A stretch of DNA of 64,000 bases from Minisyncoccota bacterium (GTDB taxonomy: Bacteria; Patescibacteriota; Minisyncoccia; Phycocordibacterales; Phycocordibacteraceae), in contig JBAYHD010000002.1 of NCBI GenBank assembly GCA_041666305.1, positions 684 to 64,683 on the forward strand, given 5' to 3'. The notes beneath the pieces were generated by a model, which saw only the letters and a program-made list of their open reading frames with translations, ran no database searches and was not told the DNA's origin. How positions within the stretch are numbered: position 1 is the stretch's first letter; each line of letters begins with the position of its first letter. Positions 555 to 29,500 of this stretch are shown here, in pieces. A program made the translations under genes and the position numbers.

Positions 555-3401
555 TTGGGAAAGCATATGGCGTACGACCACAAACACATTGAGAAGAAAT
601 GGCAGGAGAAATGGAAAAAGGACGAACCATATCGCTCAACCGAAGATACCGATAAGAAAAAAGCGTATGTGCTTGATATGTTCCCATACCCGTCAGGGGA
701 GGGGCTTCATGTGGGCCATCCGCGCGGATACATCGCGACCGATATTTATTCTCGCATGAAGCGCATGCAGGGGTACTCGGTGCTCCACCCGATGGGATGG
801 GACGCATTCGGTTTGCCGGCGGAAAATTATGCGCTCAAAAATAAAGTGCATCCGCGCGTTGCCGTGGAGAAGAACATTTCGAATTTCAAACAACAGCTCG
901 CGCACATCGGATTTGATTATGACTGGTCGCGCGAGATAAACACGACCGATCCCGCGTACTACAAATGGACTCAGTGGATATTCCTCAAAATGCTCGAGCA
1001 TAAGCTCGCGTTCCAATCGAACGAGCCCATCAACTGGTGCCCCTCATGCAAGACCGGACTCGCGAATGAAGACCTCGACGGTCCTGTGTGCGAACGCTGC
1101 GGCACTACGGTTGAGAAGAAAAGCTTGCCGCAGTGGGTGCTCAAAATTACCGACTACGCCGATCGCATGCTCGCAGACCTTGATTCGCTCAACTGGCCGG
1201 AGCACATCAAAGAAGCCCAACGGAATTGGATAGGGCGTTCCGAAGGTGCGGAAATTAGCTTTCCGATAGTCGGGAGCGAGGAAACCGTAACCGTATTCAC
1301 GACGCGACCGGACACGCTCTATGGTGCGACGTATCTGGTGCTCGCGCCGGAGCATCGCTTTCTCACCGATAAAAATTATGGGTTTACGAAATCCTTAATT
1401 AATGCAGATGACGTGCGGGCGTACGTCGCGCAGGCGGCAACGAAGACAGAGATAGAACGCGGCGCAGAAGGAAAAGAGAAGACCGGCGTGAAGCTCGAGG
1501 GCGTCAGGGCGCTCAATCCCGCGACGAAAGAAGAAATTCCTATCTACGTTGCCGACTACGTACTCGGTGGGTACGGTACAGGCGCCATCATGGCAGTCCC
1601 CGCGCACGACGAACGCGACTACGAATTTGCAAAGAAATTTAATATTCCGGTCCGGAACGTTGTTGAGCCGGTGCTTGTACAAACGACTGGTTCCGCTGCA
1701 TTCCGGGAGAACGAGCCTGTCCAAGACAGCAACGGCATCATTGCCATCGTGAAGCACTGGGGCGACGAGAAGTATATGGGCTTATATTGGTCGAAGGCAG
1801 AATGGGGCACACTTCTTACCGGCGGCATTGATGAAGGCATGGCGCCTGAAGAAACCGCCTTGAAAGAGATCCGCGAAGAAACCGGCTATACCGACGCGCG
1901 CATCGTTGAATCGTTCGGCACTATTCATAGCAAGTATTACCACGCACCGAAAGAACTCAATCGGTTCGGGCATGCACCGACATTTTATATCGAGCTCAAA
2001 AGCGATGCTCGCGAGGAAGTTTCTCCGGAAGAACTCGCCAAACACGAACTCCATTGGCTCACGAAAGAAGAATTGAAGTCATTTTTGACGGCAACATCAC
2101 ATTTGCAGGCGCTCGCGTTTTTGGATTCGCATGTCTATACCGGCTCCGGATTGCTTGCGAATTCGGGAGATTTTTCAGGCAAGGATAGCGAGCAGGCAAA
2201 ATGGGATATTACGCAAGCCGTGGGAGGGAAGCGCGTGACGCGCTACAAACTCCGCGATTGGGTTTTCTCACGCCAGCGCTATTGGGGCGAGCCGATACCG
2301 GTCATTCATTGTCCGAAAGACGGCGTGGTGCCAGTTCCGTATGAAGATTTGCCGGTCGTATTGCCGGAGGTGGAGTCGTATGAGCCGACCGGCACCGGCG
2401 AATCGCCCCTGGCCACCATCGAATCGTGGGTCAACACGAAGTGTCCGAAATGCGGCGAGCCGGCGAAGCGCGAGACGAACACGATGCCGCAATGGGCGGG
2501 CTCGTCGTGGTATTACCTGCGCTTCATGGACCCGCATGACGCAACCCAGCTTGTGTCCACGAAAAATGAAAAGTATTGGGCGCCGGTCGACGTGTACGTG
2601 GGCGGCGATCACGCCGTGCGCCATCTCATCTATGCGCGCTTCTGGCACAAGTTCCTCTATGATATCGGCGTAGTGAGCACGCAAGAACCGTTCGCGCGGC
2701 TGGAGTTCCTCGGTTTCATCCTTGCAGAAGACGGTCGCAAAATGAGCAAGCGCTACGGCAATGTCATCAATCCGGACGACGTCATCGCGGAATACGGCGC
2801 TGATGCGTTCCGTATCTATGAAATGTTCATGGGGCCATTCGAGAACACAACGAACTGGAGCACTGCTTCCATTGCCGGTACATCGCGTTTCGTGGAGCGA
2901 TTGTGGAATCTGCATGAGACGGTCACGGATGCGCCGGTTCCGGAGCTCGAGCCGCTCCTGCATCGCACCATTCAGAAAATAGGCGCGGACATCGAGTCGT
3001 TCAAATTCAATACCGCCGTGAGCCAAGCGATGATATTCCTGAACAAGATCGAAGAAGTCGGGAACATAGGAAAAGAGCAGTGGCGTTCTTTCATTTGCAT
3101 CCTTGCGCCACTGGCACCCCACTCCACAGAGGAATTGTGGGAGCTCTCCGGAGAAACTTCCTCCATCCACCTCGCTCCGTGGCCTTCATTTGACGAAAAG
3201 ATTATTGCCGCGAGCCATAGCGAGATCGTCGTGCAGGTGAACGGCAAGCGCCGCGGCTCTATTACGCTCCCTGCGGATGCCGTCGAAGAAGCCGCACTGG
3301 CGGCTGCAAAGGCTCTGCCGACCATCATGGCTATGCTCGACGGGAACGAGCCGAAACGGGTGATTTACGTGCCAGGCAGGATCATAAATCTTGTGGTATA
3401 G
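555..3401 (+). CDS. leuS: leucyl-tRNA synthetase carrying an internal Nudix-hydrolase-like insertion
   Basis: HIGH motif (HVGH), KMSKR motif, CP1 editing signatures (TTRPDT, YGTGAIMAVPAHDERD), YKLRDWVFSRQRYWGEPIP; about 130 extra residues (aa ~385-520) with Nudix fold and box GGIDEGMAPEETALKEIREETGY. Confidence 0.9.
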   Translation: MGKHMAYDHKHIEKKWQEKWKKDEPYRSTEDTDKKKAYVLDMFPYPSGEGLHVGHPRGYIATDIYSRMKRMQGYSVLHPMGWDAFGLPAENYALKNKVHPRVAVEKNISNFKQQLAHIGFDYDWSREINTTDPAYYKWTQWIFLKMLEHKLAFQSNEPINWCPSCKTGLANEDLDGPVCERCGTTVEKKSLPQWVLKITDYADRMLADLDSLNWPEHIKEAQRNWIGRSEGAEISFPIVGSEETVTVFTTRPDTLYGATYLVLAPEHRFLTDKNYGFTKSLINADDVRAYVAQAATKTEIERGAEGKEKTGVKLEGVRALNPATKEEIPIYVADYVLGGYGTGAIMAVPAHDERDYEFAKKFNIPVRNVVEPVLVQTTGSAAFRENEPVQDSNGIIAIVKHWGDEKYMGLYWSKAEWGTLLTGGIDEGMAPEETALKEIREETGYTDARIVESFGTIHSKYYHAPKELNRFGHAPTFYIELKSDAREEVSPEELAKHELHWLTKEELKSFLTATSHLQALAFLDSHVYTGSGLLANSGDFSGKDSEQAKWDITQAVGGKRVTRYKLRDWVFSRQRYWGEPIPVIHCPKDGVVPVPYEDLPVVLPEVESYEPTGTGESPLATIESWVNTKCPKCGEPAKRETNTMPQWAGSSWYYLRFMDPHDATQLVSTKNEKYWAPVDVYVGGDHAVRHLIYARFWHKFLYDIGVVSTQEPFARLEFLGFILAEDGRKMSKRYGNVINPDDVIAEYGADAFRIYEMFMGPFENTTNWSTASIAGTSRFVERLWNLHETVTDAPVPELEPLLHRTIQKIGADIESFKFNTAVSQAMIFLNKIEEVGNIGKEQWRSFICILAPLAPHSTEELWELSGETSSIHLAPWPSFDEKIIAASHSEIVVQVNGKRRGSITLPADAVEEAALAAAKALPTIMAMLDGNEPKRVIYVPGRIINLVV

Positions 3402-7099: not shown

Positions 7100-8695
7100 A
7101 TGCTCGACACGTTCAAGAAAGCTACACCCGAAGCACTGGCGGCTATTCGCGATGAAATGAAAGTCCGCTGCACCACAGAGGTCTTTCTGCTTTTTGCGCT
7201 CGGCAGTCAGTTCGACCACCTCATCTTCCAAGCGCTCGCGAAACTCGGCGTCTACGGTCTCGTCGCTGATCCGGCGAAAGTAACCGCCGCGGATGTCGAA
7301 TTGTTGAAACCCATCGGAATCATCCTGTCGGGTGGTCCGGCTTCCGTTCATTCGGAACCGCCGCCGTTCGACTCGAAGATTTTCGATCTCAGCATTCCGG
7401 TGTTAGGCATATGCCTCGGCTTCCAAATGTGGGCCAGGCACATCGGACTGACGGTACAGAGCGGTAGCCGGCAATTCGGCGTTCACACAGCAACGGTCAA
7501 TAATGTCAGTCCGCTCTTTGCGAACTGTTTGCACATTGAGCAGGTACTTCAAAGTCACGGTGATGAAATTTCCACCGACATAGACCGGTTCAAAACGCTT
7601 GCGGTGTGCGGCAACTCAGTCGCGGCAGGCCACGAGCGGAATCTGTGGGGTGTCCAGTTTCACCCCGAAGTGACCGAAACGAAATGTGGCCAAACAATCT
7701 TCGAGAATTTCTGCTTCCGGATTTGCAATGCCGAGGACCGCTTCCCCGCGCCGGATATCGCGAAACAGAAAATCGAGAAGTTGCGCAGCGAGATCGGCGA
7801 TAAGAAAGTCCTTCTCGCCCTCTCGGGTGGTTCGGATTCATCGACAGTTGCATATCTACTTAAGGCCGCAACGCGGGGCAAAGAACAGCTTCGTGGCGTC
7901 TACATCCGTGGCATCGATCGCCCGGATGACGAGGAGTTCGTTCATAAGTACTTCGGCGATCAGAACTGGATCGATCTCGTTATCGTCGATGCCACTGATC
8001 GCTTCCTTGCGGTGCTTGCAGGCAAGACGGGCATGCGAGAGAAGCGGCTCGCCATGCGCGAAGTCTACAAACCGGTGCTCGAAGAACAAGTTCGGGCATT
8101 TGGTGCGGAGTTCATCGCACAGGGTACGCTCTACACCGACATCTCGGAAAGTGGCGGAGGGCACGACAGCGGCGCACGGAAGGCAAACATCAAGATCCAT
8201 CACAATACGAATCTCGGATTCGCTTTTCCGGAACTGATGCCGCTTTCCGACTGTGTGAAGGATGGTGGCCGGGACATCGGCCGAGAGATCGGTGTACCGG
8301 AAGAACTGCTCGTCCGACATCCGTTCCCTGGACCAGGACTGGTCGTGAGGATCGAAGGCGAGATTACGCCGGAGAAACTCGCGATGGCGCGGCAACTCGA
8401 TGGCATCTACATCGAGGAACTGCGTCGAGCCGGGCTCTATGAAAAAGTTTGGCAAGCAGGGGTCGTGGTGACGAGATCCGAGCACACCTACACCGCCGGC
8501 GACGATGCAGGTACGGGTTCGGTGATCTGCTTTTGGGCGGTTTGGAGCGTCAATGGCTTTACTGCTCAAGCAGCTGATCTCCCGTTCGACTTTCGAAAGA
8601 ACTTGGCTCGACGTTTCGGAAACGAGGTACACGGCATTGGAGCCGTCGTGTATCGCGATTCGGATAAGCCACGTTCGACCATCGAGTGGGGTTGA
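7100..8695 (+). CDS. guaA: GMP synthase (glutamine-hydrolysing)
   Basis: class I glutamine amidotransferase motifs (GICLGFQ, VQFHPEV), PP-loop SGGSDSS, C-terminal FPGPGL; AGGAGG-like RBS aaaggggagg. Confidence 0.9.
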   Translation: MLDTFKKATPEALAAIRDEMKVRCTTEVFLLFALGSQFDHLIFQALAKLGVYGLVADPAKVTAADVELLKPIGIILSGGPASVHSEPPPFDSKIFDLSIPVLGICLGFQMWARHIGLTVQSGSRQFGVHTATVNNVSPLFANCLHIEQVLQSHGDEISTDIDRFKTLAVCGNSVAAGHERNLWGVQFHPEVTETKCGQTIFENFCFRICNAEDRFPAPDIAKQKIEKLRSEIGDKKVLLALSGGSDSSTVAYLLKAATRGKEQLRGVYIRGIDRPDDEEFVHKYFGDQNWIDLVIVDATDRFLAVLAGKTGMREKRLAMREVYKPVLEEQVRAFGAEFIAQGTLYTDISESGGGHDSGARKANIKIHHNTNLGFAFPELMPLSDCVKDGGRDIGREIGVPEELLVRHPFPGPGLVVRIEGEITPEKLAMARQLDGIYIEELRRAGLYEKVWQAGVVVTRSEHTYTAGDDAGTGSVICFWAVWSVNGFTAQAADLPFDFRKNLARRFGNEVHGIGAVVYRDSDKPRSTIEWG

Positions 8696-9732: not shown

Positions 9733-9743
9733 GGGGCTGTGGC

Positions 9744-9873
9744 CCGGTAGAACAACATAGCATTGCTCATTGTGTCTAGCGTTAAATATACCTTTGACTT
9801 TCTATGTTTTTATCGGTCTCGAACCTTATTATTCGATTTGAGCGTAGACACGATGCTATGTTGTTCTAACCGG
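9744..9873. mobile_element. structured palindromic repeat element (MITE/Correia-like), copy 1 of 4
   Basis: TIRs CCGGTAGAACAACATAGCAT... / ...ATGCTATGTTGTTCTAACCGG; begins 12 nt after the mnmA stop; same family at 22006, 54208, 56994. Confidence 0.6.
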
Positions 9874-9891
9874 GTGGTATATTATTACCGC

Positions 9892-10302
9892 ATGAATCAC
9901 AAGCGTCTTTGGATCGCCGCAGCCATAATCGCGGTCGCCATTTTTATCGGCTTTGTCTTGTCGGTACCGCACACACGGGATGTCGGGGACAGTAAGTTTT
10001 CGCAAAATGCCGCACCGAGCGTGCCAAGTGTATCGCTTCGCGACTCATTCAAGAAAGGAGTGCACACTATCACCGGATCGGTTGAAGCCCCGAACGCCTG
10101 CGCAAGTGCGAGTGCCAAAGCATCACTCGCGGGTGAGGGGTCAGAGAGCGCCATCTTGGTCGCACTCACGCTCAAGGATGATGGTGGAGTATGCCTGCAG
10201 GTACCAACACGCGTGACATTCTCTGTGACGATTTCCGCGCCGGTCGATCTGGCGATAATCGCGACGGTTAATGGTGAATCGGCGACGACAACCGCCCCAT
10301 GA
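9892..10302 (+). CDS. hypothetical secreted/membrane-anchored protein
   Basis: track ORF 9763 starts inside the repeat element; first plausible start ATG 9892 (MNHKRLWIAAAIIAVAIF signal/TM); preceded by TGGTATATT extended -10. Confidence 0.4.
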   Translation: MNHKRLWIAAAIIAVAIFIGFVLSVPHTRDVGDSKFSQNAAPSVPSVSLRDSFKKGVHTITGSVEAPNACASASAKASLAGEGSESAILVALTLKDDGGVCLQVPTRVTFSVTISAPVDLAIIATVNGESATTTAP

Positions 10303-11168
10303 CGACTCTCCCGGTCATCATTAAAGCGGACGGGTCGAAGGAAGTATTCGATCCGACGCGTCTCGTCATATCGCTGCGTCGAGCGGGTGCCGGAGAACAC
10401 GCGGCCGAACGCATAACGAATGCGATCACTGAAACGGTTGTGCCAGGCGTTACCTCAAAAGAAATATATTCGCGCGCGTTCGCGCTCCTTCGCAAAGAGG
10501 CGCGTCCAGTGGCCGCACGCTACGCGCTTCGGCGCGCGCTTCTGGACCTCGGCCCTACGGGGCATCCGTTCGAAGATTTCATTTCGCATTTGTATCGTGC
10601 GGAGGGTTGGCAGGTTGAAACGCGCAAGATCATTAAAGGGAAGTGCGTATCGCACGAGGTCGATTTTTATGCATCTCATCCCGATCAGAAGGAATACATC
10701 GCCGCCGAGCTCAAATATCATAATGACCCCGGATATAAGACCGATCTCAAGAACGCGCTGTATGTGAAGAGCCGTTTTGATGATATTTTTGCATGCGACC
10801 CGAGCGTGCGCGGCTGTCCGATAAACCGCGGCATCTTGGTTACCAATACCAAATTCACTTCCGAAGCCATTGCGTATGCTGAATGCGCCGGTGTCGAGCT
10901 CCTTGGATGGAGCTATCCGTTGAACGATAGTTTGTACACGCGCATGAGCCGTTCAAAGATATATCCGATAACGACGGTCACGGGATTATCCCGCGCAGAA
11001 AAGACCATTCTTCTTGACCGGGGGATCATTGCTGTCGATGAGATATTGCAGGATAGGCGGGTGCTTGACCCGCTCCACCTTGACAGCGAACGGGTCGGCG
11101 AGCTTCTGGCGGAGATAGAAGGGTTGCTTGCGCTGCCTTCGGCCGCTCATGATATTGTTTCCGTATGA
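10299..11168 (+). CDS. ATP-cone domain fused to Mrr-like (PD-(D/E)xK) restriction endonuclease domain
   Basis: N-terminal VIIKADGSKEVFDPTRL...EIYSRAFALL fits ATP-cone; C-terminal EVDFYA...AAELKYH fits Mrr_cat D/ExK core. Confidence 0.6.
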   Translation: MTTLPVIIKADGSKEVFDPTRLVISLRRAGAGEHAAERITNAITETVVPGVTSKEIYSRAFALLRKEARPVAARYALRRALLDLGPTGHPFEDFISHLYRAEGWQVETRKIIKGKCVSHEVDFYASHPDQKEYIAAELKYHNDPGYKTDLKNALYVKSRFDDIFACDPSVRGCPINRGILVTNTKFTSEAIAYAECAGVELLGWSYPLNDSLYTRMSRSKIYPITTVTGLSRAEKTILLDRGIIAVDEILQDRRVLDPLHLDSERVGELLAEIEGLLALPSAAHDIVSV

Positions 11169-11259
11169 CCCGACACACTCAAATAGCCTTGCGAGACGAT
11201 GATGGAGCTCGTAACGCGCTCAAGCGAGGATTACCGGAAGGCCTTCGAGGCCGTTTAGT

Positions 11260-11742
11260 GTGACGGGTATGATGCGATTTTCAACAGAGTCTTTTGTCGC
11301 CGGAGTCATGCTGGGGGCGGTGTTGGTGGGGGCATGGTTTTTCGGCGGAGACATACGTTCACTGCCGTTCGCGTCTTCAGGATTTCTCGCGACGTCCACG
11401 GCATCCTCGTTCCAGGAGAGCGGAGCGGTATCCGTTGTTGATCAGCCGGCTGGTTCCAGCGTTGCGGTTGAATCCGTTACCGTGCCGCCGCCGGGCGTGT
11501 GGGTTGCGGTGCGCGAAGTGAACGGCGTCGATCTCGGCAACGTACTCGGTGCGGCGCGCGTGGTTGGTCCGCACAGCGACGTCATTGTTTCGCTTTTGCG
11601 CCCCACCGAGCCGAAGCGCTCCTACGCGATAGAACTCTACCGTGATGATAATAATGGGGCGTTTGATCCTTCGGCGAACAGCGTGTACGTTGATTTTGAA
11701 ACCGGTGCGCGCGTGGTCTCCTACTTCACGACTACTCAATGA
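11260..11742 (+). CDS. hypothetical secreted protein
   Basis: N-terminal hydrophobic helix; no family recognised. Confidence 0.4.
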   Translation: MTGMMRFSTESFVAGVMLGAVLVGAWFFGGDIRSLPFASSGFLATSTASSFQESGAVSVVDQPAGSSVAVESVTVPPPGVWVAVREVNGVDLGNVLGAARVVGPHSDVIVSLLRPTEPKRSYAIELYRDDNNGAFDPSANSVYVDFETGARVVSYFTTTQ

Positions 11743-12518
11743 GCAAGTATTACAAACCCGACCGTAATCCTGGTTGGAATTATGGCGGGAAGAATTGGCG
11801 TCTTTCACGATCGAAAATCGGTCTTTTTTTAGATTGCGCCCGGTGTTTTTATTTAGATAATAAATTAGGCACAGCTCGGCCGCCGGGGTACCCTTTCAAC
11901 CTGAATTCTGCGGTTGACGCTCTGTTAAAGAAAGAGTTTGATATCCATCGAGTCGGAAAGACAGCACATCCTCTCATGGAGACCTATGGTATTGATGCAA
12001 TACCATTTGAGCACGCAGATTTAGACGTCTGGCGTGAGAACTTTAAAGGAATCGAGATAACTCATGAACCGACCGGATTCAGAATTTCAGGAGCGATAGA
12101 TGATGTGTGGGTCAAGCCTGATGGCGAGCTTGTAATTGTTGATTATAAATCGACAAGCAAAGAGCAGAGGATAGAAGCCTTGGACGAGGAGTGGCATGAC
12201 GGCTATAAACGCCAAATGGAAACATACCAGTGGCTGTTCCGACAAAGCGGATTTAAAGTATCCAATACGGGCTATTTCGTATATGCCAATGCCGATAAAG
12301 ATAAGAAAGCATTTGATGGGGTTCTTACCTTTGAATTGACACTCATACCCTATGAAGGCAATGACTCTTGGGTGGAGTACACTCTCAGAGATATTAAAAC
12401 CTGTCTGGACAGCGACGCGATACCTGATGCGTATCCTGACTGCGACTATTGCCGGTATCGTACTGTCGCCGGAACGAAGCTGCTCGCTCTTCATAAAGAT
12501 ACCAAGGGGAAGGAATAG
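11739..12518 (+). CDS. Cas4/RecB-like PD-(D/E)xK nuclease with Fe-S cysteine cluster
   Basis: N-terminal CARCFYL Cys, IVDYKST (D-x-K) core, C-terminal CDYCRY cysteines; AT-rich relative to neighbours. Confidence 0.6.
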   Translation: MSKYYKPDRNPGWNYGGKNWRLSRSKIGLFLDCARCFYLDNKLGTARPPGYPFNLNSAVDALLKKEFDIHRVGKTAHPLMETYGIDAIPFEHADLDVWRENFKGIEITHEPTGFRISGAIDDVWVKPDGELVIVDYKSTSKEQRIEALDEEWHDGYKRQMETYQWLFRQSGFKVSNTGYFVYANADKDKKAFDGVLTFELTLIPYEGNDSWVEYTLRDIKTCLDSDAIPDAYPDCDYCRYRTVAGTKLLALHKDTKGKE

Positions 12519-12528
12519 AATACTGCGT

Positions 12529-12786
12529 ATGAAAAGCCTGTTTGCCGAACGTGTCCGAGATATAGTTCGCCAAATCCCGAAAGGGCAAACACTTTCATAT
12601 ATGAGAGTAGCCGCTATTGCTGGCAATCCTGGCGCCGCGCGAGCTGTGGGCACGGTGATGAAAAATAATTTTGACCCGCTGGTGCCGTGCCATCGCGTCG
12701 TCCGCGCTGACGGGAAGGTGGGCGATTATAATCGCGGCGGTGAACGAGCGAAGAAGCGCTTGTTAGAGAAAGAAGGCGCATTATGA
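12529..12786 (+). CDS. MGMT-family protein (methylated-DNA--protein-cysteine methyltransferase DNA-binding domain, PCHRV)
   Basis: PCHRVV active-site motif and YGxIA/NP signature; track ORF 12352 overlaps upstream gene, internal Met 12529 used. Confidence 0.6.
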   Translation: MKSLFAERVRDIVRQIPKGQTLSYMRVAAIAGNPGAARAVGTVMKNNFDPLVPCHRVVRADGKVGDYNRGGERAKKRLLEKEGAL

Positions 12787-13451
12787 ATGTAAAAATAGAT
12801 CCGTCATGGGCGAGGCACTTGAAGGGCGAATTTGAAAAGGCTTATTTTGAAGAGCTGACGAGATTCGTGAAGAATGAATACAAAAACGGCGCCGTGTACC
12901 CAGCGCCGAAGAATATTTTTCGTGCATTCGACCTGTGCCCGTTCGAAAAAGTGAAAGTGGTTATCCTCGGACAGGACCCGTACCACGGCGTTCGTCAGGC
13001 GAACGGCCTCGCGTTCGCCGTGGAGAGCACCGAGAAAATTCCACCGTCGCTTCAAAATATTTTTAAAGAAATTGAGAGCGATCTTCACGGGCCGCTTGTG
13101 CATGCAGACGGCGACCTCTCGCGCTGGGCGAAACAGGGCGTGTTGCTCCTCAATGCAACACTCACCGTGCGAGCCGGCATAGCCGGCTCGCACCAGGAGA
13201 AGGGGTGGGAGCAATTTACCGACGCTGTCATCAAAGCGCTTTCGGAGGAACACGAACATCTCGTTTTTATGCTCTGGGGCAATTATGCGAAGGCGAAGGG
13301 CGCACACATCGACCGCAGTAAGCACCTCGTGCTTGAAGCTCCGCATCCCTCGCCATTCTCCGCCGCCTCCGGCTTTTTCGGCTGTAAGCACTTCTCTAAA
13401 GCAAATGACTACCTCGTCGCTCACAACGAAACCCCGATAGACTGGTTGTGA
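12783..13451 (+). CDS. ung: uracil-DNA glycosylase (family 1)
   Basis: [19 protein letters not shown] motifs; full length 222 aa. Confidence 0.85.
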   Translation: MNVKIDPSWARHLKGEFEKAYFEELTRFVKNEYKNGAVYPAPKNIFRAFDLCPFEKVKVVILGQDPYHGVRQANGLAFAVESTEKIPPSLQNIFKEIESDLHGPLVHADGDLSRWAKQGVLLLNATLTVRAGIAGSHQEKGWEQFTDAVIKALSEEHEHLVFMLWGNYAKAKGAHIDRSKHLVLEAPHPSPFSAASGFFGCKHFSKANDYLVAHNETPIDWL

Positions 13452-13492
13452 ATATGCGATTGTAAAACGGCACGCTCCTGTATACTCACACT

Positions 13493-13996
13493 ATGAAGAA
13501 AATAGTTTGGTGGATTTTAGGAATTACCCTCCTATCATATGTCGCTATCCGTATAGCCCCTGAGCTTTTCGTTTTCTTTGGTCAATTACTTGTTTTGCTA
13601 CCACTTCTGCTACCCATTTATGGTGTGTACTGGTATATGAAAAGGCCAAGGAAACAAAATATGACTCAGATTTCAACAAATTCATTACCGAATCAGGAAA
13701 GAAGTCCTATAAACAAGACTCTAGAAGTCGTTGGTGTGGGCTTCATGTACTTCTTTTTTATCGGTATGGGTCTAATGAATATGGCCAATTGTCGAGGAAA
13801 TGAATGTGACACATTCACAACATCTTTTGCCTTGGGCTGTATATGGTTGATAATCAGTCTTCTTGGTTTCGTCTATACTGTGTACATGAACGGATCATCT
13901 ACCAACAAGTGGTTACTGGTATTTAAACCTTACATCGCACTTCCAATTTTCTTTGCCATAATCTTTATGGGTCAACCACTGATAAGTGGTTACTAA
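13493..13996 (+). CDS. hypothetical integral membrane protein (AT-rich insert)
   Basis: 4-5 predicted TM helices; strongly AT-rich vs flanks; lies between ung and a duplicated ung 3' fragment. Confidence 0.45.
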   Translation: MKKIVWWILGITLLSYVAIRIAPELFVFFGQLLVLLPLLLPIYGVYWYMKRPRKQNMTQISTNSLPNQERSPINKTLEVVGVGFMYFFFIGMGLMNMANCRGNECDTFTTSFALGCIWLIISLLGFVYTVYMNGSSTNKWLLVFKPYIALPIFFAIIFMGQPLISGY

Positions 13997-14029
13997 ATTG
14001 GATCGGAAAGTCAGACTTTCCGGAAATTC

Positions 14030-14374
14030 GACGGAGATTTAACACGATGGGCCGAGCAGGGCGTATTGCTCCTCAATGCCACGCTCACCGTGCGAGCCGG
14101 CATAGCCGGCTCGCACCAGGAGAAGGGGTGGGAACAATTCACCGATGCCGTTATCAAGGCACTCTCAGAAGAGCGCGAGCATCTCGTTTTCATGCTCTGG
14201 GGCAATTATGCGAAGGCGAAGGGCGCACACATCGACCGCAGTAAGCACCTCGTGCTTGAAGCTCCGCACCCCTCGCCATTCTCCGCCGCATCCGGCTTTT
14301 TCGGGTGCAAACATTTCAGCCGTGCGAACGAGTATCTTATTTCCCACAACGAAACCCCCATCGACTGGCTCTAG
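14030..14374 (+). pseudogene. orphan duplicate of the ung 3' half (about 115 codons, no proper start)
   Basis: aligns to ung 13107-13451 at roughly 90% nt identity with mostly synonymous differences (e.g. gacctctcgcgc vs gatttaacacga both DL(S/T)R); opens directly after the stop of the 13493 gene in the same frame. Confidence 0.7.
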
Positions 14375-14417
14375 CTACTTGGAGGCGAGGCCTCCAAGTA
14401 GGCCCCCAAGTAGCTAG
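14375..14417 (+). other. strong hairpin with alternative pairing
   Basis: ctacttggaggc-gag-gcctccaagtag perfect 12-bp stem; downstream ccaagtagctag can pair alternatively with ctagctacttgg (14371-14382). Confidence 0.5.
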
Positions 14418-14495
14418 ATTGATAAGTTCAAGAAGTAGGCGTAAAATCGCGGAGGTTCAAATCGTTGTTTCCATTAACGTTCTTGGGAGTCAGAC

Positions 14496-15248
14496 ATGCA
14501 AAAATTGAAGCAGGAAGCGGCGGCAAATCTTGCGGCGCTTGCACGGAATCCTTATCCGGGTCGCGTCATCATCATTGGTTTGGACCAAAAGGGCGAGAAC
14601 TTGGTTCAGGTCTATGCCATCATGGGTCGGAGCGAAAACAGCCGAAATCGCGTCTTCGGATACGAGGGCGGAAGAGTTTTCACCGAAGCCGCAAATCCGG
14701 CAAAAATGAAAGACCCGCGGCTGGTGATCTACAACGCCATGCGCGAGGTTTTGGTCCCAGGCATGGACAGCACCATGAACGTCGTCAGCAACGGCGATCA
14801 GACTGACAAAGTCGCCGATGGCTACAAGGAGGACAAGAGTTTCCAAGCGACGTTGAGCCAGTGCAAATATGAACCGGATGCTCCGAACTTCACTCCGCGC
14901 ATCACGGCGTCCAGCTACTGGCTCCGCAGCGGGAAGCCCGTCGGCCTCATGTCTTTGTTGCGTAAGTCGCCGTGGAGCGACGAATGCGATCGGCATTTGC
15001 ACGAAATCAACGGCTTCGGCCAGGGTTTCGGGCATTGTCTCACCACGTACCTGGGGGACGGCGATCCGTTGCCGGCATATCGCGGCGAGCCGCGTCTGAT
15101 GCCGCTTCTGGGCGACCTCGATTGGATCGCCGATATGTACTGGGAAATGCTGGACCCGGGCAACCGCGTGTCGCTCGCGGTGAAGTTCATTCCGCGGCTC
15201 GGTCTTTCAAGCACGGTCATCAGGAATCAGTATTCGAAAGTAGCCTGA
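14496..15248 (+). CDS. IMP cyclohydrolase-like protein (archaeal PurO family, tentative)
   Basis: N-terminal YPGRVIIIGLD...VYAIMGRSENSRNRVF resembles PurO; assignment from memory of family motifs only. Confidence 0.4.
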   Translation: MQKLKQEAAANLAALARNPYPGRVIIIGLDQKGENLVQVYAIMGRSENSRNRVFGYEGGRVFTEAANPAKMKDPRLVIYNAMREVLVPGMDSTMNVVSNGDQTDKVADGYKEDKSFQATLSQCKYEPDAPNFTPRITASSYWLRSGKPVGLMSLLRKSPWSDECDRHLHEINGFGQGFGHCLTTYLGDGDPLPAYRGEPRLMPLLGDLDWIADMYWEMLDPGNRVSLAVKFIPRLGLSSTVIRNQYSKVA

Positions 15249-21995: not shown

Positions 21996-22005
21996 CCCAG
22001 TTGAC

Positions 22006-22135
22006 CCGGTAGAACAACATGGCATCGTGTCTTTTGCTCCCAACAATGCAATGTCAACAAAGGCTTGTTGCTCCGGAAATTTTGATGGATAAATGGACCA
22101 TGACACAAGGAGCAATGCCATGTTGTTCTCACCGG
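22006..22135. mobile_element. structured palindromic repeat element, copy 2 of 4
   Basis: TIRs CCGGTAGAACAACATGGCAT / ATGCCATGTTGTTCTCACCGG; flanked by perfect direct repeat GTTGAC (22000-22005 and 22136-22141). Confidence 0.65.
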
Positions 22136-22197
22136 GTTGACGGCTTTTCGGATACCTGCTAGATTGATGTGGTAACTGCACTGGTAATGAATAGCAA

Positions 22198-26915: not shown

Positions 26916-26944
26916 AGAGCAAGAAACGGGGACACCCACCATTA

Positions 26945-26990
26945 ATTTCCAAACAAAAACCTCGCGTCATGCCCCGGGCGACAGGGATCC
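26945..26990 (+). repeat. island direct repeat (a): AATTTCCAAACAAAAACCTCGCGTCATGCCCCGGGCGACAGGGATCC
   Basis: five same-orientation copies at 26945, 27538, 27681, 29505, 30172. Confidence 0.65.
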
Positions 26991-27000
26991 TGATGGGGAG

Positions 27001-27519
27001 TTATTCCAGATTGTTCAAATAGCACCTAATGTCGGCACTCGACTTCAAGACAATTACTTTATCTTTGTGCTCATTAATAAATAGCATCAGTTTCGGTTTG
27101 GTTCTAAATTGGCGACGAATAATCTCGAGGAAGAAGGCAATCTCGTGTCGGATATTAAGCTCCGGATGTCTCTCCGACGGATTGAATATGCGCTGAGCGT
27201 GATTAAACAATCTGCGCCAAAGCGGAATGTCGAGAAAAATAATGACGTCGGCCCTTTTTGCGATTTCTGGTTGCACAGAACGCGTGTATAAACCGTCGGA
27301 GACCCACGAGTCTGCAGCAATCGCAGTTGCCGTCTTTTGCCTAACGAAGGTTCGCACTCGGTCGCGCTCTTCAATGGGGGCACCATCCTTCATCTGATTT
27401 CCGCCCGCCTCGAACCAGAATCGGTCGAGGTGGATGTGTGGTATAGATAATTTTTCACTAATCGCTCGCGCGAGAGTAGATTTCCCGCTCGCGGGTAACC
27501 CAACAATGCTTATACGCAT
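27001..27519 (-). CDS. P-loop NTPase / nucleotide kinase-like protein (FlaR/adenylate-kinase-like)
   Basis: Walker A GLPASGKST close to N-terminus (start taken at MRISIVG); bracketed by direct repeats (a) and (b); only minus-strand gene in island. Confidence 0.55.
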   Translation of the reverse strand: MRISIVGLPASGKSTLARAISEKLSIPHIHLDRFWFEAGGNQMKDGAPIEERDRVRTFVRQKTATAIAADSWVSDGLYTRSVQPEIAKRADVIIFLDIPLWRRLFNHAQRIFNPSERHPELNIRHEIAFFLEIIRRQFRTKPKLMLFINEHKDKVIVLKSSADIRCYLNNLE

Positions 27520-27537
27520 TGCGTAAGAATACATTAA

Positions 27538-27580
27538 ATAATTCCCAAACAAAAACCTCGCGTCATGCCCCGGCGACCTT
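27538..27580 (+). repeat. island direct repeat (b)
   Basis: ATTCCCAAACAAAAACCTCGCGTCATGCCCCGGCGACC. Confidence 0.65.
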
Positions 27581-27601
27581 CCGTCTCAGTGAAGGTAGTA
27601 T

Positions 27602-27637
27602 GTTCGTTAACTCTAACGGTCGTATCAATTAACGAAC
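27602..27637. repeat. conserved hairpin GTTCGTTAA-N18-TTAACGAAC with AACGGTCGT loop core (copy A)
   Basis: perfect 9-bp stem; near-identical second copy at 35800-35835. Confidence 0.55.
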
Positions 27638-27680
27638 AGCAGATTGCCTACGCTGCGCAAGGTTCGACCTTTCTCAAAAT

Positions 27681-27726
27681 AATTTCCAAACAAAAACCTC
27701 GCGTCATGTCCCCGGCGACAGGGGTC
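27681..27726 (+). repeat. island direct repeat (c)
   Basis: AATTTCCAAACAAAAACCTCGCGTCATGTCCCCGGCGACAGGGG. Confidence 0.65.
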
Positions 27727-27824
27727 TAGAGCAGGAGTATTTGACTGAATGACTTAAGAGCATATGATTCCAGTCAGACACACAAGTAGTTCCCACCAAT
27801 GCTTGCAGACAGAAGGAGTTCGTC

Positions 27825-28313
27825 ATGAACAGTTCTATTAGTCCAAAAAAGCTTCGTCATGCCATAAATCAGTATTTCGATCAGACCCCGGCCACTGAGG
27901 TCGTGCGACGTGCAGAAGAACTGAAGCCGCAGGAGATGAAGTCTAGGGAAATGGTACTGTTTGGACCTCCCGGCCTCGTCGCCAAGGTATACAAAACGTT
28001 CAAGATCGACTGCGACGGAAACGTGATTTTCGACGGCATCCGCATTGCCGGATTGAGCATCAAGCTTCCGAAGGGAAGGATCAATGATATACACTGCCGT
28101 TTGCGCCTGCACCACCCGGAGACGGGAGACTTGTTCGAGACGACTGGCTACGTTTCAGACGCGTTCGTGTACGAGGTGTTGCAGTGTTGGGATGGCAAAG
28201 ATACCGTGACCATCGCCGGCAAGAAGATGGTGCATCAACCAGTTCGTGGCAATTCTGTGCCCCAGCAGTATTACTTGCTGGTTGAGGTCATAGAGGATAC
28301 ATCGCCGTTCTAA
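27825..28313 (+). CDS. hypothetical protein
   Basis: ORF with protein-like composition; no family recognised. Confidence 0.4.
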   Translation: MNSSISPKKLRHAINQYFDQTPATEVVRRAEELKPQEMKSREMVLFGPPGLVAKVYKTFKIDCDGNVIFDGIRIAGLSIKLPKGRINDIHCRLRLHHPETGDLFETTGYVSDAFVYEVLQCWDGKDTVTIAGKKMVHQPVRGNSVPQQYYLLVEVIEDTSPF

Positions 28314-28450
28314 AGCCGTTCGCAGAAGTCCGTTCTGCGAACGGCTTTTGCTTTTTGAGGTTCAACCTTGCTAAAAAACAGTCGATTCTCGAACTGTGAT
28401 ATATTCGGCTCTAGAAAGTCCCGCAACCAATAGAAAAGGAGGTAGTTAGT

Positions 28451-28849
28451 ATGGCAACGAGAGAAGCGGCATCTGGCCGCATCCAGATACTCAAGACACC
28501 AGCTTGGGACGCTCCACTTGAGGCCCGCGGAGCGTTTGTGATGAAAGCAGCGCTTCCGTGTTATCCGTATGTCGGGTATCCGTCCGGCGTAGTGAGGGAC
28601 GTCGTGACTCGCAGGGAAATGGAGATCAAGAAAATAGGCGTCATCGTGCCGCAGGACAAAGCATTACAGGTCCTCTGGCAGAATAATCCGGTGGCGGCCA
28701 CATGGTGGATAGACCGCGGCTTCCCGAAACGCAGAGGATGCTTTTTCTTCACTGAAGGCGAGTTCACCATCGTCAGCGGCGTCCCCGATGATCCGGTATG
28801 GGTTTTTGAGAACATACGGGTTGGGCACTGGCGCCAAATGCTCCCCTGA
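28451..28849 (+). CDS. hypothetical protein
   Basis: ORF preceded by aaaggaggtag RBS; no family recognised. Confidence 0.45.
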   Translation: MATREAASGRIQILKTPAWDAPLEARGAFVMKAALPCYPYVGYPSGVVRDVVTRREMEIKKIGVIVPQDKALQVLWQNNPVAATWWIDRGFPKRRGCFFFTEGEFTIVSGVPDDPVWVFENIRVGHWRQMLP

Positions 28850-29455: not shown

Positions 29456-29500
29456 GTTCCGCCCTCAACGAAAACCGTTGGAGGGCGGTTTTCATTTTTA
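29455..29500 (+). terminator. rho-independent terminator
   Basis: ccgccctcaacgaaaaccgttggagggcgg then TTTTCATTTTT. Confidence 0.65.

What the first reader, a model, noticed from the sequence alone, without database searches (positions are those of the whole stretch)
10299..13451. Cluster of nucleases and DNA-repair genes: ATP-cone-Mrr, Cas4/RecB-like Fe-S nuclease, MGMT-like, ung
Within 3.2 kb on one strand lie four genes: an ATP-cone/Mrr nuclease; a Cas4-like PD-(D/E)xK nuclease with the four-Cys Fe-S signature (CARCFY…CDYCRY), which is AT-rich and translationally coupled to the upstream ORF; an 85-aa MGMT-family protein retaining the PCHRV cysteine; and uracil-DNA glycosylase. No cas1/cas2 or CRISPR array is nearby, so the Cas4-like protein is a stand-alone. 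Taken together the genes may form a DNA-damage or anti-phage module rather than a random collection.
Basis: inference. Interest (0 to 1): 0.55.

Follow-up and report, generated by a model that had tools for sequence, protein, structure and literature searches.

The report
Conserved DNA-maintenance gene cluster, Paceibacteria
A tightly packed run of two nuclease genes, a mini alkyl-transferase gene and a uracil-glycosylase gene is real and kept in the same order in dozens of related ultra-small (CPR) bacteria. It looks like part of their inherited housekeeping chromosome backbone, not a mobile anti-phage system.

Summary
Two ORFs were left out: a DUF7282 membrane protein between the two nucleases and a 136-aa ORF upstream. 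The window comes from a Paceibacteria (Patescibacteria/CPR) genome.

Synteny is real. Among 80 species-level genomes, the ATP-cone–Mrr gene lies upstream of the Cas4-like gene in 60/72, MGMT downstream in 48/72 and ung nearby in 29/64. The flanking housekeeping genes are just as fixed: mltG 52/63, mnmA 53/63, alaS 45/52. Unrelated membrane genes (MgtC in 29 loci, DUF7282) sit between the nucleases. The pairings disappear in distant Cas4-like relatives and in archaeal AF1548-type homologues.

The Cas4-like protein is a vertically inherited solo RecB-family nuclease with intact catalytic motifs. Its four invariant Cys are arranged CX2C…CX2C, not in the usual 1+3 pattern. It scores below the Cas4 cutoff. 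The 64 kb holds no cas1, cas2 or CRISPR array.

The AT-richness is specific to this genome (GC3 0.46 against about 0.60) and suggests allele replacement in place.

Best reading: co-transcribed housekeeping DNA-maintenance genes. A defence role is not supported. Interest is modest.

The parts
9743..9875 (+). Long conserved hairpin element (two ~21-nt arms about 90 nt apart). It lies between the mnmA stop (9732) and the first ORF of the cluster and probably marks the 5' boundary of the transcription unit.
   Evidence: Four copies in the window. Folding gives -54 kcal/mol, z = -6.0. There are 22 distinct copies, 18 of them from metagenomes, and 8 of 27 pairs show compensatory changes.
9892..10302 (+). 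136-aa hypothetical protein with no domain hit. Its stop overlaps the ATG of the Mrr gene (ATGA).
   Evidence: It was called as a gene in the independent contig L081. It is conserved and overlapping in close relatives L088, L090 and L092.
10299..11168 (+). ATP-cone + Mrr-type PD-(D/E)XK endonuclease + AF1548-like C-terminal helical (HhH-like) domain.
   Evidence: Pfam hits. PDB 1Y88 matches at E = 5.5e-21 over residues 94-274. AF2 model has pLDDT 91.4. Foldseek gives 1Y88 at TMt 0.75, and the NrdR/RNR ATP-cones match at about 1.8-2 A rmsd. K9, E120, D122, E137 and K139 are invariant across CPR and archaeal homologues.
11269..11742 (+). DUF7282 protein with an N-terminal hydrophobic segment (alternative GTG start at 11260). 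Its stop overlaps the ATG of the Cas4-like gene.
   Evidence: PF23951 scores 38.5 bits. Sequence read. It holds the same position in relatives of the window's clade.
11739..12518 (+). Solo Cas4-like RecB-family nuclease. Motifs: D121, D135-x-K137, Q159...Y163, and four invariant Cys in the layout CX2C...CX2C. Low GC3.
   Evidence: AF2 model has pLDDT 90.7. Foldseek matches AdnAB, Cas4, MGME1, EXO5 and AddB. GC3 is 0.458.
12529..12786 (+). Minimal 85-aa O6-alkylguanine-DNA alkyltransferase. It has only the C-terminal DNA-binding/active-site domain, with PCHRV (Cys54).
   Evidence: PF01035 scores 96.7 bits and TIGR00589 scores 78.9 bits. All 53 homologues in relatives are 78-101 aa and keep PCHRV.
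12783..13451 (+). Family-1 uracil-DNA glycosylase with GQDPYH and HPSPFS motifs. Its ATG overlaps the MGMT stop.
   Evidence: NF003589 scores 323.7 bits against a cutoff of 223. Motifs checked.
13452..14046 (+). AT-rich insertion (about 38-40% GC) carrying a 167-aa multi-TM ORF (13493-13996). No homologue was found and the insertion is absent from relatives.
   Evidence: GC3 0.39. It occurs in 0 of 80 loci. No relative was found in metagenome contigs. Relative L088 goes straight from ung to the next gene.
14047..14374 (+). Diverged duplicate of the ung 3' end: 108 codons, 86-90% nt identity to 13125-13451, differences mostly synonymous.
   Evidence: It is also present in the separate JGI contig L081.
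14370..14417 (+). Strong 13-bp hairpin overlapping the stop codon of the ung fragment, a likely end of the transcription unit. A promoter-like site for purO follows at 14419-14447.
   Evidence: Folding gives -28.2 kcal/mol, z = -3.9. Promoter-like match is 10/12.

Best explanation
The region is a vertically inherited piece of the conserved chromosome backbone of Paceibacteria (CPR bacteria). It forms two tightly packed transcription units: [136-aa ORF - ATP-cone-Mrr nuclease] and [DUF7282 - Cas4-like nuclease - mini-MGMT - Ung].

The four DNA enzymes are constitutive housekeeping DNA-maintenance functions that act largely independently of one another.
- Ung excises uracil.
- The 85-aa MGMT removes O6-alkyl groups by suicide transfer to Cys54.
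- The Cas4-like protein is an active RecB-type nuclease braced by a four-Cys metal centre. It trims DNA ends or flaps, in the way solo Cas4, AddB or Exo5 nuclease domains do.
- The ATP-cone-Mrr protein is an endonuclease whose activity is probably gated by ATP/dATP binding to its N-terminal ATP-cone. This follows the same sensor-plus-PD-(D/E)XK logic as NrdR or RNR regulation and Can2-type nucleases.

Shown here: the domains, the catalytic residues, the gene coupling, the synteny and the breadth of distribution. Inferred: every biochemical activity, co-transcription, and ATP-cone gating.

The cluster is a themed neighbourhood kept by gene-order inertia and co-expression. It is not a mobile defence island or a single integrated machine.
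For: - Domains and catalytic motifs are intact and conserved. Confident AF2 models match the expected folds.
- Start/stop overlaps and a 10-nt gap link the genes.
- The synteny covers a whole backbone block. ATP-cone-Mrr is upstream in 60/72 loci, MGMT downstream in 48/72, ung nearby in 29/64, mnmA in 53/63, mltG in 52/63 and alaS in 45/52. The same block, leuS-sigma-DUF8128-mltG-mnmA-...-ung, appears when loci are sampled through the Mrr gene.
- The Cas4-like family is very widespread and strongly conserved. At least 582 GTDB species genomes encode it, at 61-85% identity in the top 80. Flanking mnmA and mltG are about 42% identical in the same loci. The library holds 8000+ 90%-identity clusters.
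- In relatives the gene's GC3 matches its flanks, as expected for a resident gene.
- PADLOC finds no defence-system context.
- Published work reported that solo-Cas4 is common, vertically inherited and under ordinary purifying selection in CPR and DPANN genomes (PMC5704561).
- Other base or nucleotide 'sanitation' genes recur downstream in relatives: 12 further UDG-superfamily ORFs, NUDIX, MazG and HD.
Against: - No experiment exists for any of these proteins.
- The 80 loci were chosen by Cas4-like similarity, so their conservation figures are biased upward.
- Synteny that equals the background cannot prove or disprove functional linkage.
- In more distant relatives the same Cas4-like family sits tightly next to helicase or restriction-type genes and other defence-type genes (ResIII/TnsA-like, PIF1-like, HerA, type III Res, SLATT, DUF3644) or in phage-like contigs. 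The family can therefore take part in defence or mobile-element functions.
- The Cys layout is non-canonical, so an Fe-S cluster, as opposed to Zn, is unproven.
- The ATP-cone-Mrr family has no known function in any organism.
Confidence: 0.6

Rival explanations
1. Integrated repair module. The two nucleases work together with Ung and MGMT in one pathway. For example, the nucleases would process AP sites, nicks, flaps or breaks produced after base removal. The gene order would be maintained because the proteins cooperate.
For: The Cas4-like-MGMT adjacency is the most persistent pairing: 48/72 loci, with gaps mostly of 15-170 nt. It survives in L012, L037, L043 and L047, where the Mrr gene has moved away. 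ATGA overlaps link MGMT to ung and DUF7282 to the Cas4-like gene. Further UDG-superfamily genes occupy the same slot in relatives.
Against: Unrelated membrane genes are interleaved (MgtC in 29 loci, DUF7282). MGMT is absent in about a third of loci and ung in about half, and ung is on the opposite strand in 6 loci. Close relatives L090, L092 and L093 lack MGMT. Cas4-like genes at 38-42% identity, and those in Yonathbacteria and Nomurabacteria, have none of these neighbours. Archaeal ATP-cone-Mrr genes have no Cas4-like, MGMT or UDG neighbour.
Confidence: 0.15
2. Nucleotide-salvage nucleases. In bacteria that cannot make nucleotides de novo, the ATP-cone senses the (d)ATP pool and switches on the Mrr-type nuclease. 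Together with the Cas4-like exonuclease it degrades imported or host DNA to nucleotides. Ung and MGMT clean the incoming material.
For: The ATP-cone is a bona fide ATP/dATP-sensor fold, matching NrdR and RNR at about 1.8-2 A rmsd, and its K9 is invariant. In a Bathyarchaeia contig the orthologue overlaps the AMP-phosphorylase gene, next to a ribose-1,5-bisphosphate-isomerase-like gene. Rare fusions join the Cas4-like domain to NUDIX or HD_4. A pyrimidine 5'-nucleotidase lies next to the Cas4-like gene in L034. HD, NUDIX, MazG and guanylate-kinase genes recur downstream. guaA, a purO-like gene and a HAD gene lie nearby in this window.
Against: All of these associations are single or minority cases; peptidases dominate the variable neighbours. 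guaA and purO occur in 0 of 80 related loci. Neither nuclease has an export signal or a link to competence genes. A cytoplasmic non-specific DNase would threaten the cell's own genome. None of this has been tested.
Confidence: 0.12
3. Anti-phage or anti-MGE defence module. This would be a type IV-like restriction nuclease (Mrr catalytic domain) assisted by a stand-alone Cas4-like nuclease.
For: The Mrr_cat domain is typical of modification-dependent restriction enzymes, and Foldseek matches MspJI and AspBHI. PADLOC Cas4 models hit at E of about 1e-9. In L066 and in IMG/VR contigs L084-L087 the same Cas4-like family abuts type III Res, ResIII/TnsA-like, PIF1-like, HerA, SLATT_4, DUF3644 and T5orf172 genes. 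Solo-Cas4 lies next to R-M genes in some DPANN genomes (PMC5704561).
Against: The locus is fixed in position among housekeeping genes across at least 60 species. The Cas4-like protein is more conserved than the core genes beside it, and GC3 matches the genome in relatives. There is no Mrr_N or other modification-reader domain, no methyltransferase and no helicase. Only a marginal ZorD nuclease-domain hit appears (E = 0.009). No other defence genes lie in the 64 kb. The ATP-cone-Mrr gene has no relatives in viral contigs.
Confidence: 0.1

Closest known systems
Solo-Cas4 / PF12705 Cas4-like RecB-family nucleases of CPR bacteria and DPANN archaea (Hudaiberdiev et al. 2017, PMC5704561)
   Same: Stand-alone gene with no cas1, cas2 or CRISPR array. 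RecB-type motifs (D...DxK, QxxxY). Four conserved Cys bridge the N- and C-terminal segments. Inheritance is vertical in small-genome lineages. Structural neighbours are Cas4 (7mi4, 8d3l, 4ic1, 4r5q), the AdnAB and AddB nuclease domains, EXO5 and MGME1.
   Different: The Cys layout is CX2C...CX2C, whereas those enzymes have C...CX2CX5C (own knowledge). It scores below the Cas4 equivalog cutoff (34 bits against 65). No PDB entry matches at sequence level, and Foldseek TM-scores are only 0.33-0.5. It has a conserved N-terminal region of about 100 aa that the PDDEXK_1 profile does not cover.
AF1548 family (PDB 1Y88): ATP-cone + Mrr_cat + AF1548-like_C proteins of Archaea
   Same: Same three-domain architecture and length (about 260-290 aa). 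The sequence match is E = 5.5e-21 and Foldseek TMt is 0.75. K9, E120, D122, E137 and K139 are invariant across both groups.
   Different: Only 28-37% identical to the archaeal members. In Paceibacteria the gene is embedded in a fixed mnmA-...-Cas4-like block, while the archaeal contexts vary. The function is unknown in both.
E. coli Mrr and MspJI-type type IV restriction endonucleases
   Same: Same catalytic domain family (PF04471). The nuclease folds align.
   Different: There is no N-terminal modification-reader (Mrr_N/SRA-like) domain; an ATP-cone takes its place. The gene is not island-borne and is core and syntenic.
Ogt/Ada-C/MGMT alkyltransferases and the short COG3695-type 'MGMT family' / ATL proteins
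   Same: Same DNA-binding/active-site domain with PCHRV.
   Different: It lacks the N-terminal domain of Ogt/MGMT and falls below the equivalog cutoffs. Unlike the ATL proteins (own knowledge: Trp or Ala replaces the Cys), it keeps the acceptor Cys. It is therefore probably an active minimal transferase, which is untested.
Family-1 uracil-DNA glycosylase (Ung)
   Same: Full-length equivalog hit with the GQDPYH motif.
   Different: The DNA-intercalation loop reads HPSPFS in place of HPSPLS, here and in 25 of 34 relatives. In this genome the 3' end of the gene is duplicated around an insertion.

Membership tests
Cas4 (CRISPR-associated; TIGR00372 / PF01930) | Score at or above the curated family cutoff | tested here: not met
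   TIGR00372 scores 34.3 bits against a cutoff of 65. PF01930 was not reported for the window protein. The PADLOC Cas4 models reach only E of about 1e-9.
Cas4 (CRISPR-associated; TIGR00372 / PF01930) | RecB-type nuclease motifs (D, D/ExK, QxxxY) | tested here: met
   D121, D135, K137, Q159 and Y163 are kept in at least 94% of 117 representatives that are no more than 50% identical to each other. They are invariant in 54 close homologues.
Cas4 (CRISPR-associated; TIGR00372 / PF01930) | Four-Cys Fe-S 'staple' in the 1 + 3 layout (C...CX2CX5C) | tested here: not met
   Four invariant Cys are present, but as C33-x2-C36 and C235-x2-C238. The identity of the metal cannot be tested with these tools.
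Cas4 (CRISPR-associated; TIGR00372 / PF01930) | Encoded next to cas1/cas2 or a CRISPR array | tested here: not met
   The 64 kb holds no repeat array. None of 66 ORFs hits Cas1, Cas2 or another Cas model. None was seen in the annotated related loci.
PD-(D/E)XK nuclease superfamily, PF12705 (PDDEXK_1) | Pfam gathering score | tested here: met
   66.2 bits against a cutoff of 22.
AF1548 family (ATP-cone + Mrr_cat + AF1548-like_C) | ATP-cone domain | tested here: met
   PF03477 scores 28.5 bits against 25.8. The modelled fold matches the NrdR and RNR ATP-cones at about 1.8-2.0 A over about 84 residues.
AF1548 family (ATP-cone + Mrr_cat + AF1548-like_C) | Mrr-type catalytic domain with conserved E/D...ExK | tested here: met
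   PF04471 scores 25.9 bits against 21. E120, D122, E137 and K139 are invariant in 57 CPR and archaeal sequences.
AF1548 family (ATP-cone + Mrr_cat + AF1548-like_C) | AF1548-like C-terminal domain (PF22357) | tested here: inconclusive
   The Pfam model was not reported for the window protein at E <= 0.01. However, the phmmer alignment to 1Y88 runs through residue 274 and Foldseek TMt is 0.75.
Type IV restriction endonuclease (Mrr sensu stricto) | N-terminal modified-DNA reader domain; variable, island-like genomic location | tested here: not met
   The N-terminus is an ATP-cone. The locus is fixed between mnmA and the Cas4-like gene in 60/72 genomes.
Ogt/MGMT alkyltransferase | Active-site domain with the PCHR motif | tested here: met
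   PF01035 scores 96.7 bits and TIGR00589 scores 78.9 bits against 46.4. PCHRV is kept in all 53 homologues.
Ogt/MGMT alkyltransferase | Two-domain protein (N-terminal domain plus C-terminal domain) reaching equivalog scores | tested here: not met
   Only 85 aa. NF007626 scores 53.5 bits against 192, and NF011964 scores 60.3 bits against 345.
Ogt/MGMT alkyltransferase | Alkyl transfer to the active-site Cys | not testable with these tools
   Needs biochemistry.
Family-1 uracil-DNA glycosylase | Equivalog score and catalytic motifs | tested here: met
   NF003589 scores 323.7 bits against 223. GQDPYH is present. The second motif reads HPSPFS, with Phe in place of Leu.
Known anti-phage defence systems (PADLOC-DB v2) | Hits to the component models of a defined system in adjacent genes | tested here: not met
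   Only the Cas4 domain models and a marginal ZorD nuclease-domain hit (E = 0.009) were found. No system components appear among 66 window ORFs.

The most novel reading that the evidence does not exclude
The ATP-cone-Mrr nuclease (AF1548 family, shared by Archaea and CPR bacteria) may be a nuclease gated by the (d)ATP pool. Together with the near-universal CX2C...CX2C Cas4-like exonuclease, it would form the core intracellular DNA-catabolic and salvage machinery of Paceibacteria, which cannot synthesise nucleotides. The co-encoded Ung and mini-MGMT would sanitise the salvaged DNA. On this reading the cluster is a metabolic module, not a repair or defence module.
Probability: 0.12. Interest if true: 0.7.

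Novelty: new member of a known kind. Interest (0 to 1): 0.3.

Why it matters
CPR bacteria and DPANN archaea are known to carry solo Cas4-like nucleases of unknown role. This locus shows that, across many Paceibacteria species sampled here, one such nuclease is a highly conserved, fixed-position gene, the pattern expected of a core gene. It is co-encoded with an equally enigmatic ATP-cone-nuclease fusion that is shared with Archaea.

That points to a housekeeping role in DNA maintenance or DNA turnover, not immunity. It also singles out two small proteins that could be tested biochemically:
- What metal does the CX2C...CX2C centre bind?
- Does ATP or dATP switch the Mrr-type nuclease?

Beyond that, the cluster is ordinary. 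Every gene belongs to a described family, and the synteny matches the general gene-order conservation of these small genomes.

Tried and rejected
- Sequence searches of the Cas4-like protein and its 54-sequence profile against PDB chains gave only chance hits. Only fold comparison was informative.
- tblastn of the Cas4-like protein against 50,697 GenBank phage records found no match.
- The ATP-cone-Mrr protein has no relative in IMG/VR contigs.
- The 167-aa membrane ORF of the insertion has no Pfam, NCBIfam, PHROG or PADLOC hit and no relative in metagenome contigs. Its donor could not be traced.
- I compared the two ung 3' copies with relatives to decide which is native. Both are about equally distant (78-80% nt), so this was not decisive.
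- Literature searches for an ATP-cone/Mrr fusion, for AF1548, and for CPR nuclease or salvage links found nothing on this cluster. One query was rejected for syntax.
- A cluster look-up of distant representatives gave no taxonomy.
- The promoter/terminator scan found no more sites than shuffled sequence, so operon boundaries rest on gene spacing and two hairpins.
- CRISPR association was considered and rejected.
- An integron attC identity for the repeated hairpin was considered and rejected. The copies are dispersed, and the arms fit the R''/R' consensus (recalled from memory) only partly.
- The apparent conservation of an 'M13 peptidase' next to alaS was an artefact of an antisense 5' ORF extension. 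It was corrected.

Full report
**What is in the sequence**

- A 289-aa protein at 10299-11168 has an ATP-cone (PF03477, 28.5 bits against a cutoff of 25.8) and an Mrr-type catalytic domain (PF04471, 25.9 against 21).
- A 259-aa PD-(D/E)XK nuclease at 11739-12518 hits PF12705 at 66 bits.
- An 85-aa protein at 12529-12786 consists only of the MGMT active-site domain, with PCHRV. PF01035 scores 96.7 bits and TIGR00589 scores 78.9 against 46.4.
- A family-1 uracil-DNA glycosylase at 12783-13451 hits NF003589 at 323.7 bits against 223.

Two further ORFs belong to the same run.
- A DUF7282 protein with an N-terminal hydrophobic segment lies at 11260/11269-11742.
- A 136-aa ORF lies at 9892-10302.

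ATGA start/stop overlaps join the 136-aa ORF to the Mrr gene, DUF7282 to the Cas4-like gene, and MGMT to ung. Only 10 nt separate the Cas4-like and MGMT genes. The only sizeable gap, about 90-100 nt, lies between the Mrr gene and DUF7282. An independently called JGI contig gives the same gene calls.

The window has no CRISPR-like array. Rfam reports only two tRNAs. A PADLOC scan of 66 window ORFs finds no Cas1, Cas2 or other Cas protein; only the Cas4 models hit this gene.

**Organism and setting**

Identical or near-identical proteins are annotated in MAGs of 'Candidatus Paceibacterota'. Nearly all genes in the window are on the + strand, so 'on one strand' carries no weight here.

Upstream lie leuS, a sigma-like gene, DUF8128, mltG, guaA and mnmA. 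Downstream lie an insertion, a purO-like gene, a HAD gene, an M13 peptidase and alaS.

**The Cas4-like nuclease**

The family is very large. More than 8000 90%-identity clusters pass E <= 1e-3, and the 120 best are 69-100% identical. At least 582 GTDB species genomes encode a relative. In the 50%-identity representative library, 1889 clusters pass E <= 1e-3 and 285 pass 1e-30.

D121, D135-x-K137 and Q159...Y163 are conserved in 81 Paceibacteria sequences and in at least 94% of 117 divergent representatives. The enzyme should therefore be active.

Four Cys are invariant, but their layout is C33-x2-C36 and C235-x2-C238. The pattern I know for Cas4, AddB, Dna2 and EXO5 is C...CX2CX5C (own knowledge). 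A metal centre bridging the N- and C-terminal segments is likely. Whether it is Fe-S or Zn cannot be decided here.

The AF2 model is confident (pLDDT 90.7). Its nearest solved folds are the AdnAB and AddB nuclease domains, Cas4 (7mi4, 8d3l, 4ic1, 4r5q), MGME1, EXO5 and ACE1. TM-scores are only 0.33-0.5, and there is no sequence-level PDB match.

The protein falls below the Cas4 equivalog cutoff (34.3 against 65 bits). It is best described as a solo, Cas4-like RecB-family nuclease. Hudaiberdiev et al. reported this category as common, vertically inherited and functionally unknown in CPR and DPANN genomes (PMC5704561).

**The ATP-cone-Mrr protein**

Residues 94-274 match PDB 1Y88 (AF1548) at E = 5.5e-21. 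A search seeded with the AF1548 sequence shows that the natural archaeal proteins are about 265 aa. They have the architecture ATP-cone + Mrr_cat + AF1548-like_C. They occur in Archaeoglobi, Bathyarchaeia, Korarchaeota, Aenigmarchaeota, Altiarchaeales and others.

CPR and archaeal members share invariant K9, E120, D122, E137 and K139. The AF2 model (pLDDT 91.4) superposes on 1Y88 at TMt 0.75. Its N-terminal domain superposes on the NrdR and RNR ATP-cones at about 1.8-2 A over about 84 residues. The nuclease domain also resembles Can2, MspJI and AspBHI.

The architecture suggests an endonuclease gated by an adenine-nucleotide sensor. That is an inference. No member of the family has a known function, and I found no paper on it.

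**Synteny**

I fetched 80 species-level loci through the Cas4-like protein (61-85% identity). I located the window's proteins in them by tblastn.

| Gene and position relative to the Cas4-like gene | Loci with gene / loci with enough flank |
|---|---|
| ATP-cone-Mrr, <= 2.6 kb upstream, same strand | 60/72 |
| MGMT, <= 0.8 kb downstream (gaps mostly 15-170 nt) | 48/72 |
| ung, <= 3.5 kb downstream (6 on the opposite strand) | 29/64 |
| mnmA, <= 5 kb upstream, same strand | 53/63 |
| mltG, <= 5 kb upstream, same strand | 52/63 |
| alaS, <= 8 kb downstream | 45/52 |

The housekeeping flanks are therefore as fixed as the 'repair' genes.

Sampling through the Mrr protein instead (76-79% identity) gives the same block: leuS, sigma, DUF8128, mltG, mnmA, a 137-aa ORF, Mrr, DUF7282, Cas4-like, MGMT in some loci, and ung. 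MGMT is missing in three of these loci.

The Mrr/Cas4-like junction falls into three classes: directly adjacent, one intervening gene, or more. In 29 of 32 intervening ORFs tested, the gene is an MgtC-family membrane protein. In the window's clade it is DUF7282.

The variable stretch between the Cas4-like gene and alaS is dominated by peptidases (M16 in 21 ORFs, M3 in 13). It also contains 12 further UDG-superfamily genes, plus HD, NUDIX, MazG and guanylate-kinase genes.

guaA, the purO-like gene, the HAD gene and the membrane ORF of this window occur in none of the 80 loci.

**Beyond the clade**

Yonathbacteria and Nomurabacteria loci, and some others, carry the Cas4-like gene in unrelated contexts. 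Neighbours there include a thioredoxin-like gene, a CAP-domain gene, a pyrimidine 5'-nucleotidase, and GGDEF with a P-type ATPase.
- A 42%-identical relative is a lone gene among ROK and rsmH.
- A 38%-identical relative lies near DNA-methylase and GIY-YIG genes.
- Relatives at 49% and 56% identity sit in phage-like contigs with HNH/NUMOD4, Gp80, Gp3-like, beta-helix and RtcB genes.
- A PHROG of unknown function matches the protein over its full length (E = 5e-19).

In L066 and four IMG/VR contigs the gene abuts other genes, often within a few nucleotides. These are type III Res, ResIII/TnsA-like, PIF1-like, HerA, SLATT_4, DUF3644 and T5orf172. Rare fusions join the domain to NUDIX, HD_4, TIR+GYF or DUF2779.

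The archaeal ATP-cone-Mrr genes have varied neighbours. These are CorA and DUF389 in Ferroglobus, and AMP phosphorylase plus an IF-2B-like isomerase in a Bathyarchaeia contig. None has a Cas4-like, MGMT or UDG neighbour.

The pairings in the finding are therefore specific to Paceibacteria. They are not an ancient functional linkage.

**The AT-richness**

The Cas4-like gene has GC3 0.458, against 0.58-0.66 for its neighbours. In 69 related loci, GC3 of the gene differs from that of its housekeeping neighbours by a mean of only +0.018. The dip is therefore specific to this genome.

The gene's phylogeny also disagrees with its flanks. L064 and L069 are as close to the window as L001 and L002 by Mrr (73-74%), mnmA, ung and alaS. 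Yet their Cas4-like proteins are only 61-62% identical to the window's.

Meanwhile the window, L001 and L002 group at 73-76% with Kaiserbacteria-type alleles, whose flanks are only about 40% identical.

The simplest reading is replacement of the allele in place, by recombination with a lower-GC relative. This is an inference and no donor was identified.

**Downstream duplication**

The last roughly 330 nt of ung are repeated at 14047-14374. Identity is 86-90% at the nucleotide level and the differences are mostly synonymous. The two copies flank a 0.6-kb insertion of 38-40% GC that encodes an orphan 167-aa membrane protein.

The separate JGI contig L081 shows the same structure. Relative L088 goes straight from ung to the next gene, and L092 and L093 have ung followed by purO.

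A strong hairpin at 14370-14417 (-28 kcal/mol, z = -3.9) and a promoter-like site for purO follow the fragment, not the intact gene. The pattern fits a single-crossover (Campbell-type) insertion of a small circular DNA that carried a homologous ung 3' segment. Ung is left intact. Which copy is native could not be settled.

**Most likely function**

I rate the following at about 0.6. The locus is a set of housekeeping genes that are probably co-transcribed, lying inside a conserved backbone.
- Ung and the mini-MGMT deal with uracil and O6-alkylguanine.
- The Cas4-like enzyme trims DNA ends or flaps.
- The ATP-cone-Mrr enzyme is a nucleotide-gated endonuclease with an unknown substrate.

The recurrence of other sanitation genes nearby (UDG-superfamily, NUDIX, MazG, HD) gives the neighbourhood a 'DNA and nucleotide hygiene' flavour. 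The interleaved membrane genes, the frequent loss of MGMT and ung, and the independence of the nucleases elsewhere all argue against a single integrated machine (rival, 0.15).

A nucleotide-salvage role (0.12) is attractive for organisms that cannot make nucleotides. It is hinted at by the ATP-cone, the AMP-phosphorylase neighbour in one archaeon and a few fusions, but it rests on anecdotes.

A defence role (0.10) has three points in its favour: the Mrr domain, the weak PADLOC Cas4 hits (E of about 1e-9), and the defence-like or phage-like contexts of distant family members. It conflicts with the fixed position and near-universal presence in this clade. It also conflicts with the strong conservation, the native composition in relatives, and the absence of reader, methylase or helicase partners.

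**Verdict**

Every gene belongs to a described family, and solo Cas4-like genes in CPR genomes are already in the literature. The modestly new points are:
- the CX2C...CX2C variant of the metal site;
- the fixed-position, highly conserved status of both nucleases across the Paceibacteria species sampled;
- the orthology of the ATP-cone-Mrr protein with the archaeal AF1548 family;
- the evidence for allele replacement in place.

Interest is 0.3.

Noticed in passing
window 13107-14374 (repeats 13107-13406 / 14030-14329; insertion 13452-14046): The 3' ~330 nt of ung are duplicated (86-90% nt identity, mostly synonymous differences). The copies flank a 0.6-kb AT-rich insertion that encodes an orphan 167-aa multi-TM protein, and ung itself stays intact. 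It looks like a Campbell-type insertion of a small circular DNA carrying an ung 3' segment. It is absent from relatives L088 and L092 and present in JGI contig L081.
   Followed up: partly
window 9743-9875, 22005-22137, 54207-54343, 56993-57129; also L104-L126: A dispersed hairpin element with arms CCCGGTAGRACAACWTRGCAT ... ATGCYAWGTWGTYCTMACCGGG, 90-94 nt apart, an inner helix (TTGCTCC/GGAGCAA) and a variable interior. Each window copy starts 6-33 nt after the stop codon of a + strand gene. There are 22 distinct copies including metagenome contigs, and 8 of 27 pairs show compensatory changes. Folding gives z = -6 and there is no Rfam match. It could be a 3'-UTR or terminator-like structured RNA, or a REP/MITE-like element specific to this lineage.
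   Followed up: partly
window 11739-12518 (and partly 12529-12786): The Cas4-like gene has GC3 0.46 against about 0.60 in its flanks, only in this genome. Its tree position also disagrees with the flanking genes: L064 and L069 against L001 and L002. This suggests xenologous allele replacement in place.
   Followed up: partly
window 555-3401: The leucyl-tRNA synthetase carries an inserted NUDIX domain (residues about 415-511). The same LeuRS+NUDIX architecture appears in relatives L092 and L093.
   Followed up: no
window 26943-30219: A repeat family of 4-5 copies of a ~45-59-nt unit (AATTTCCAAACAAAAACCTCGCGTCATGCCCCGGCGAC...) lies at irregular spacing (596, 141, 1819, 677 nt). It is not CRISPR-like.
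   Followed up: no
L003-L070 (29 loci), between the ATP-cone-Mrr and Cas4-like genes; L101 5001: In many Paceibacteria an MgtC-family (Mg2+ homeostasis) membrane gene sits between the two nuclease genes. In Ferroglobus the orthologous ATP-cone-Mrr gene overlaps the end of a CorA Mg2+ transporter gene. The recurrent Mg2+-related neighbour may be coincidence.
   Followed up: no
L103 3467-5873 (Bathyarchaeia contig): The archaeal ATP-cone-Mrr orthologue overlaps the 3' end of an AMP-phosphorylase-like gene. That gene follows an IF-2B-like (ribose-1,5-bisphosphate isomerase-type) gene, which is the nucleotide-salvage pentose-bisphosphate pathway context.
   Followed up: no
window 13340-13360 (ung residues ~187-192) and ung genes of L001-L080: The DNA-intercalation loop of Ung reads HPSPFS (or HPSPFA) in place of the canonical HPSPLS, here and in 25 of 34 related Paceibacteria Ung sequences.
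   Followed up: partly
window 7100-8695 and 14496-15248: guaA (GMP synthase) and a purO-like IMP cyclohydrolase flank the cluster here. Both are absent from the corresponding position in all 80 related loci, and only L092 and L093 have purO after ung. They appear to be accessory purine-metabolism insertions into the conserved block.
   Followed up: partly
L084 3313-8363; L087 2-2384: In IMG/VR contigs the same Cas4-like family forms very tight gene strings with helicases. One string is a ResIII/TnsA-like 895-aa protein, then Cas4-like, then a PIF1/RecD-like helicase. Another is HerA followed by Cas4-like. These may be uncharacterised helicase-nuclease systems.
   Followed up: no
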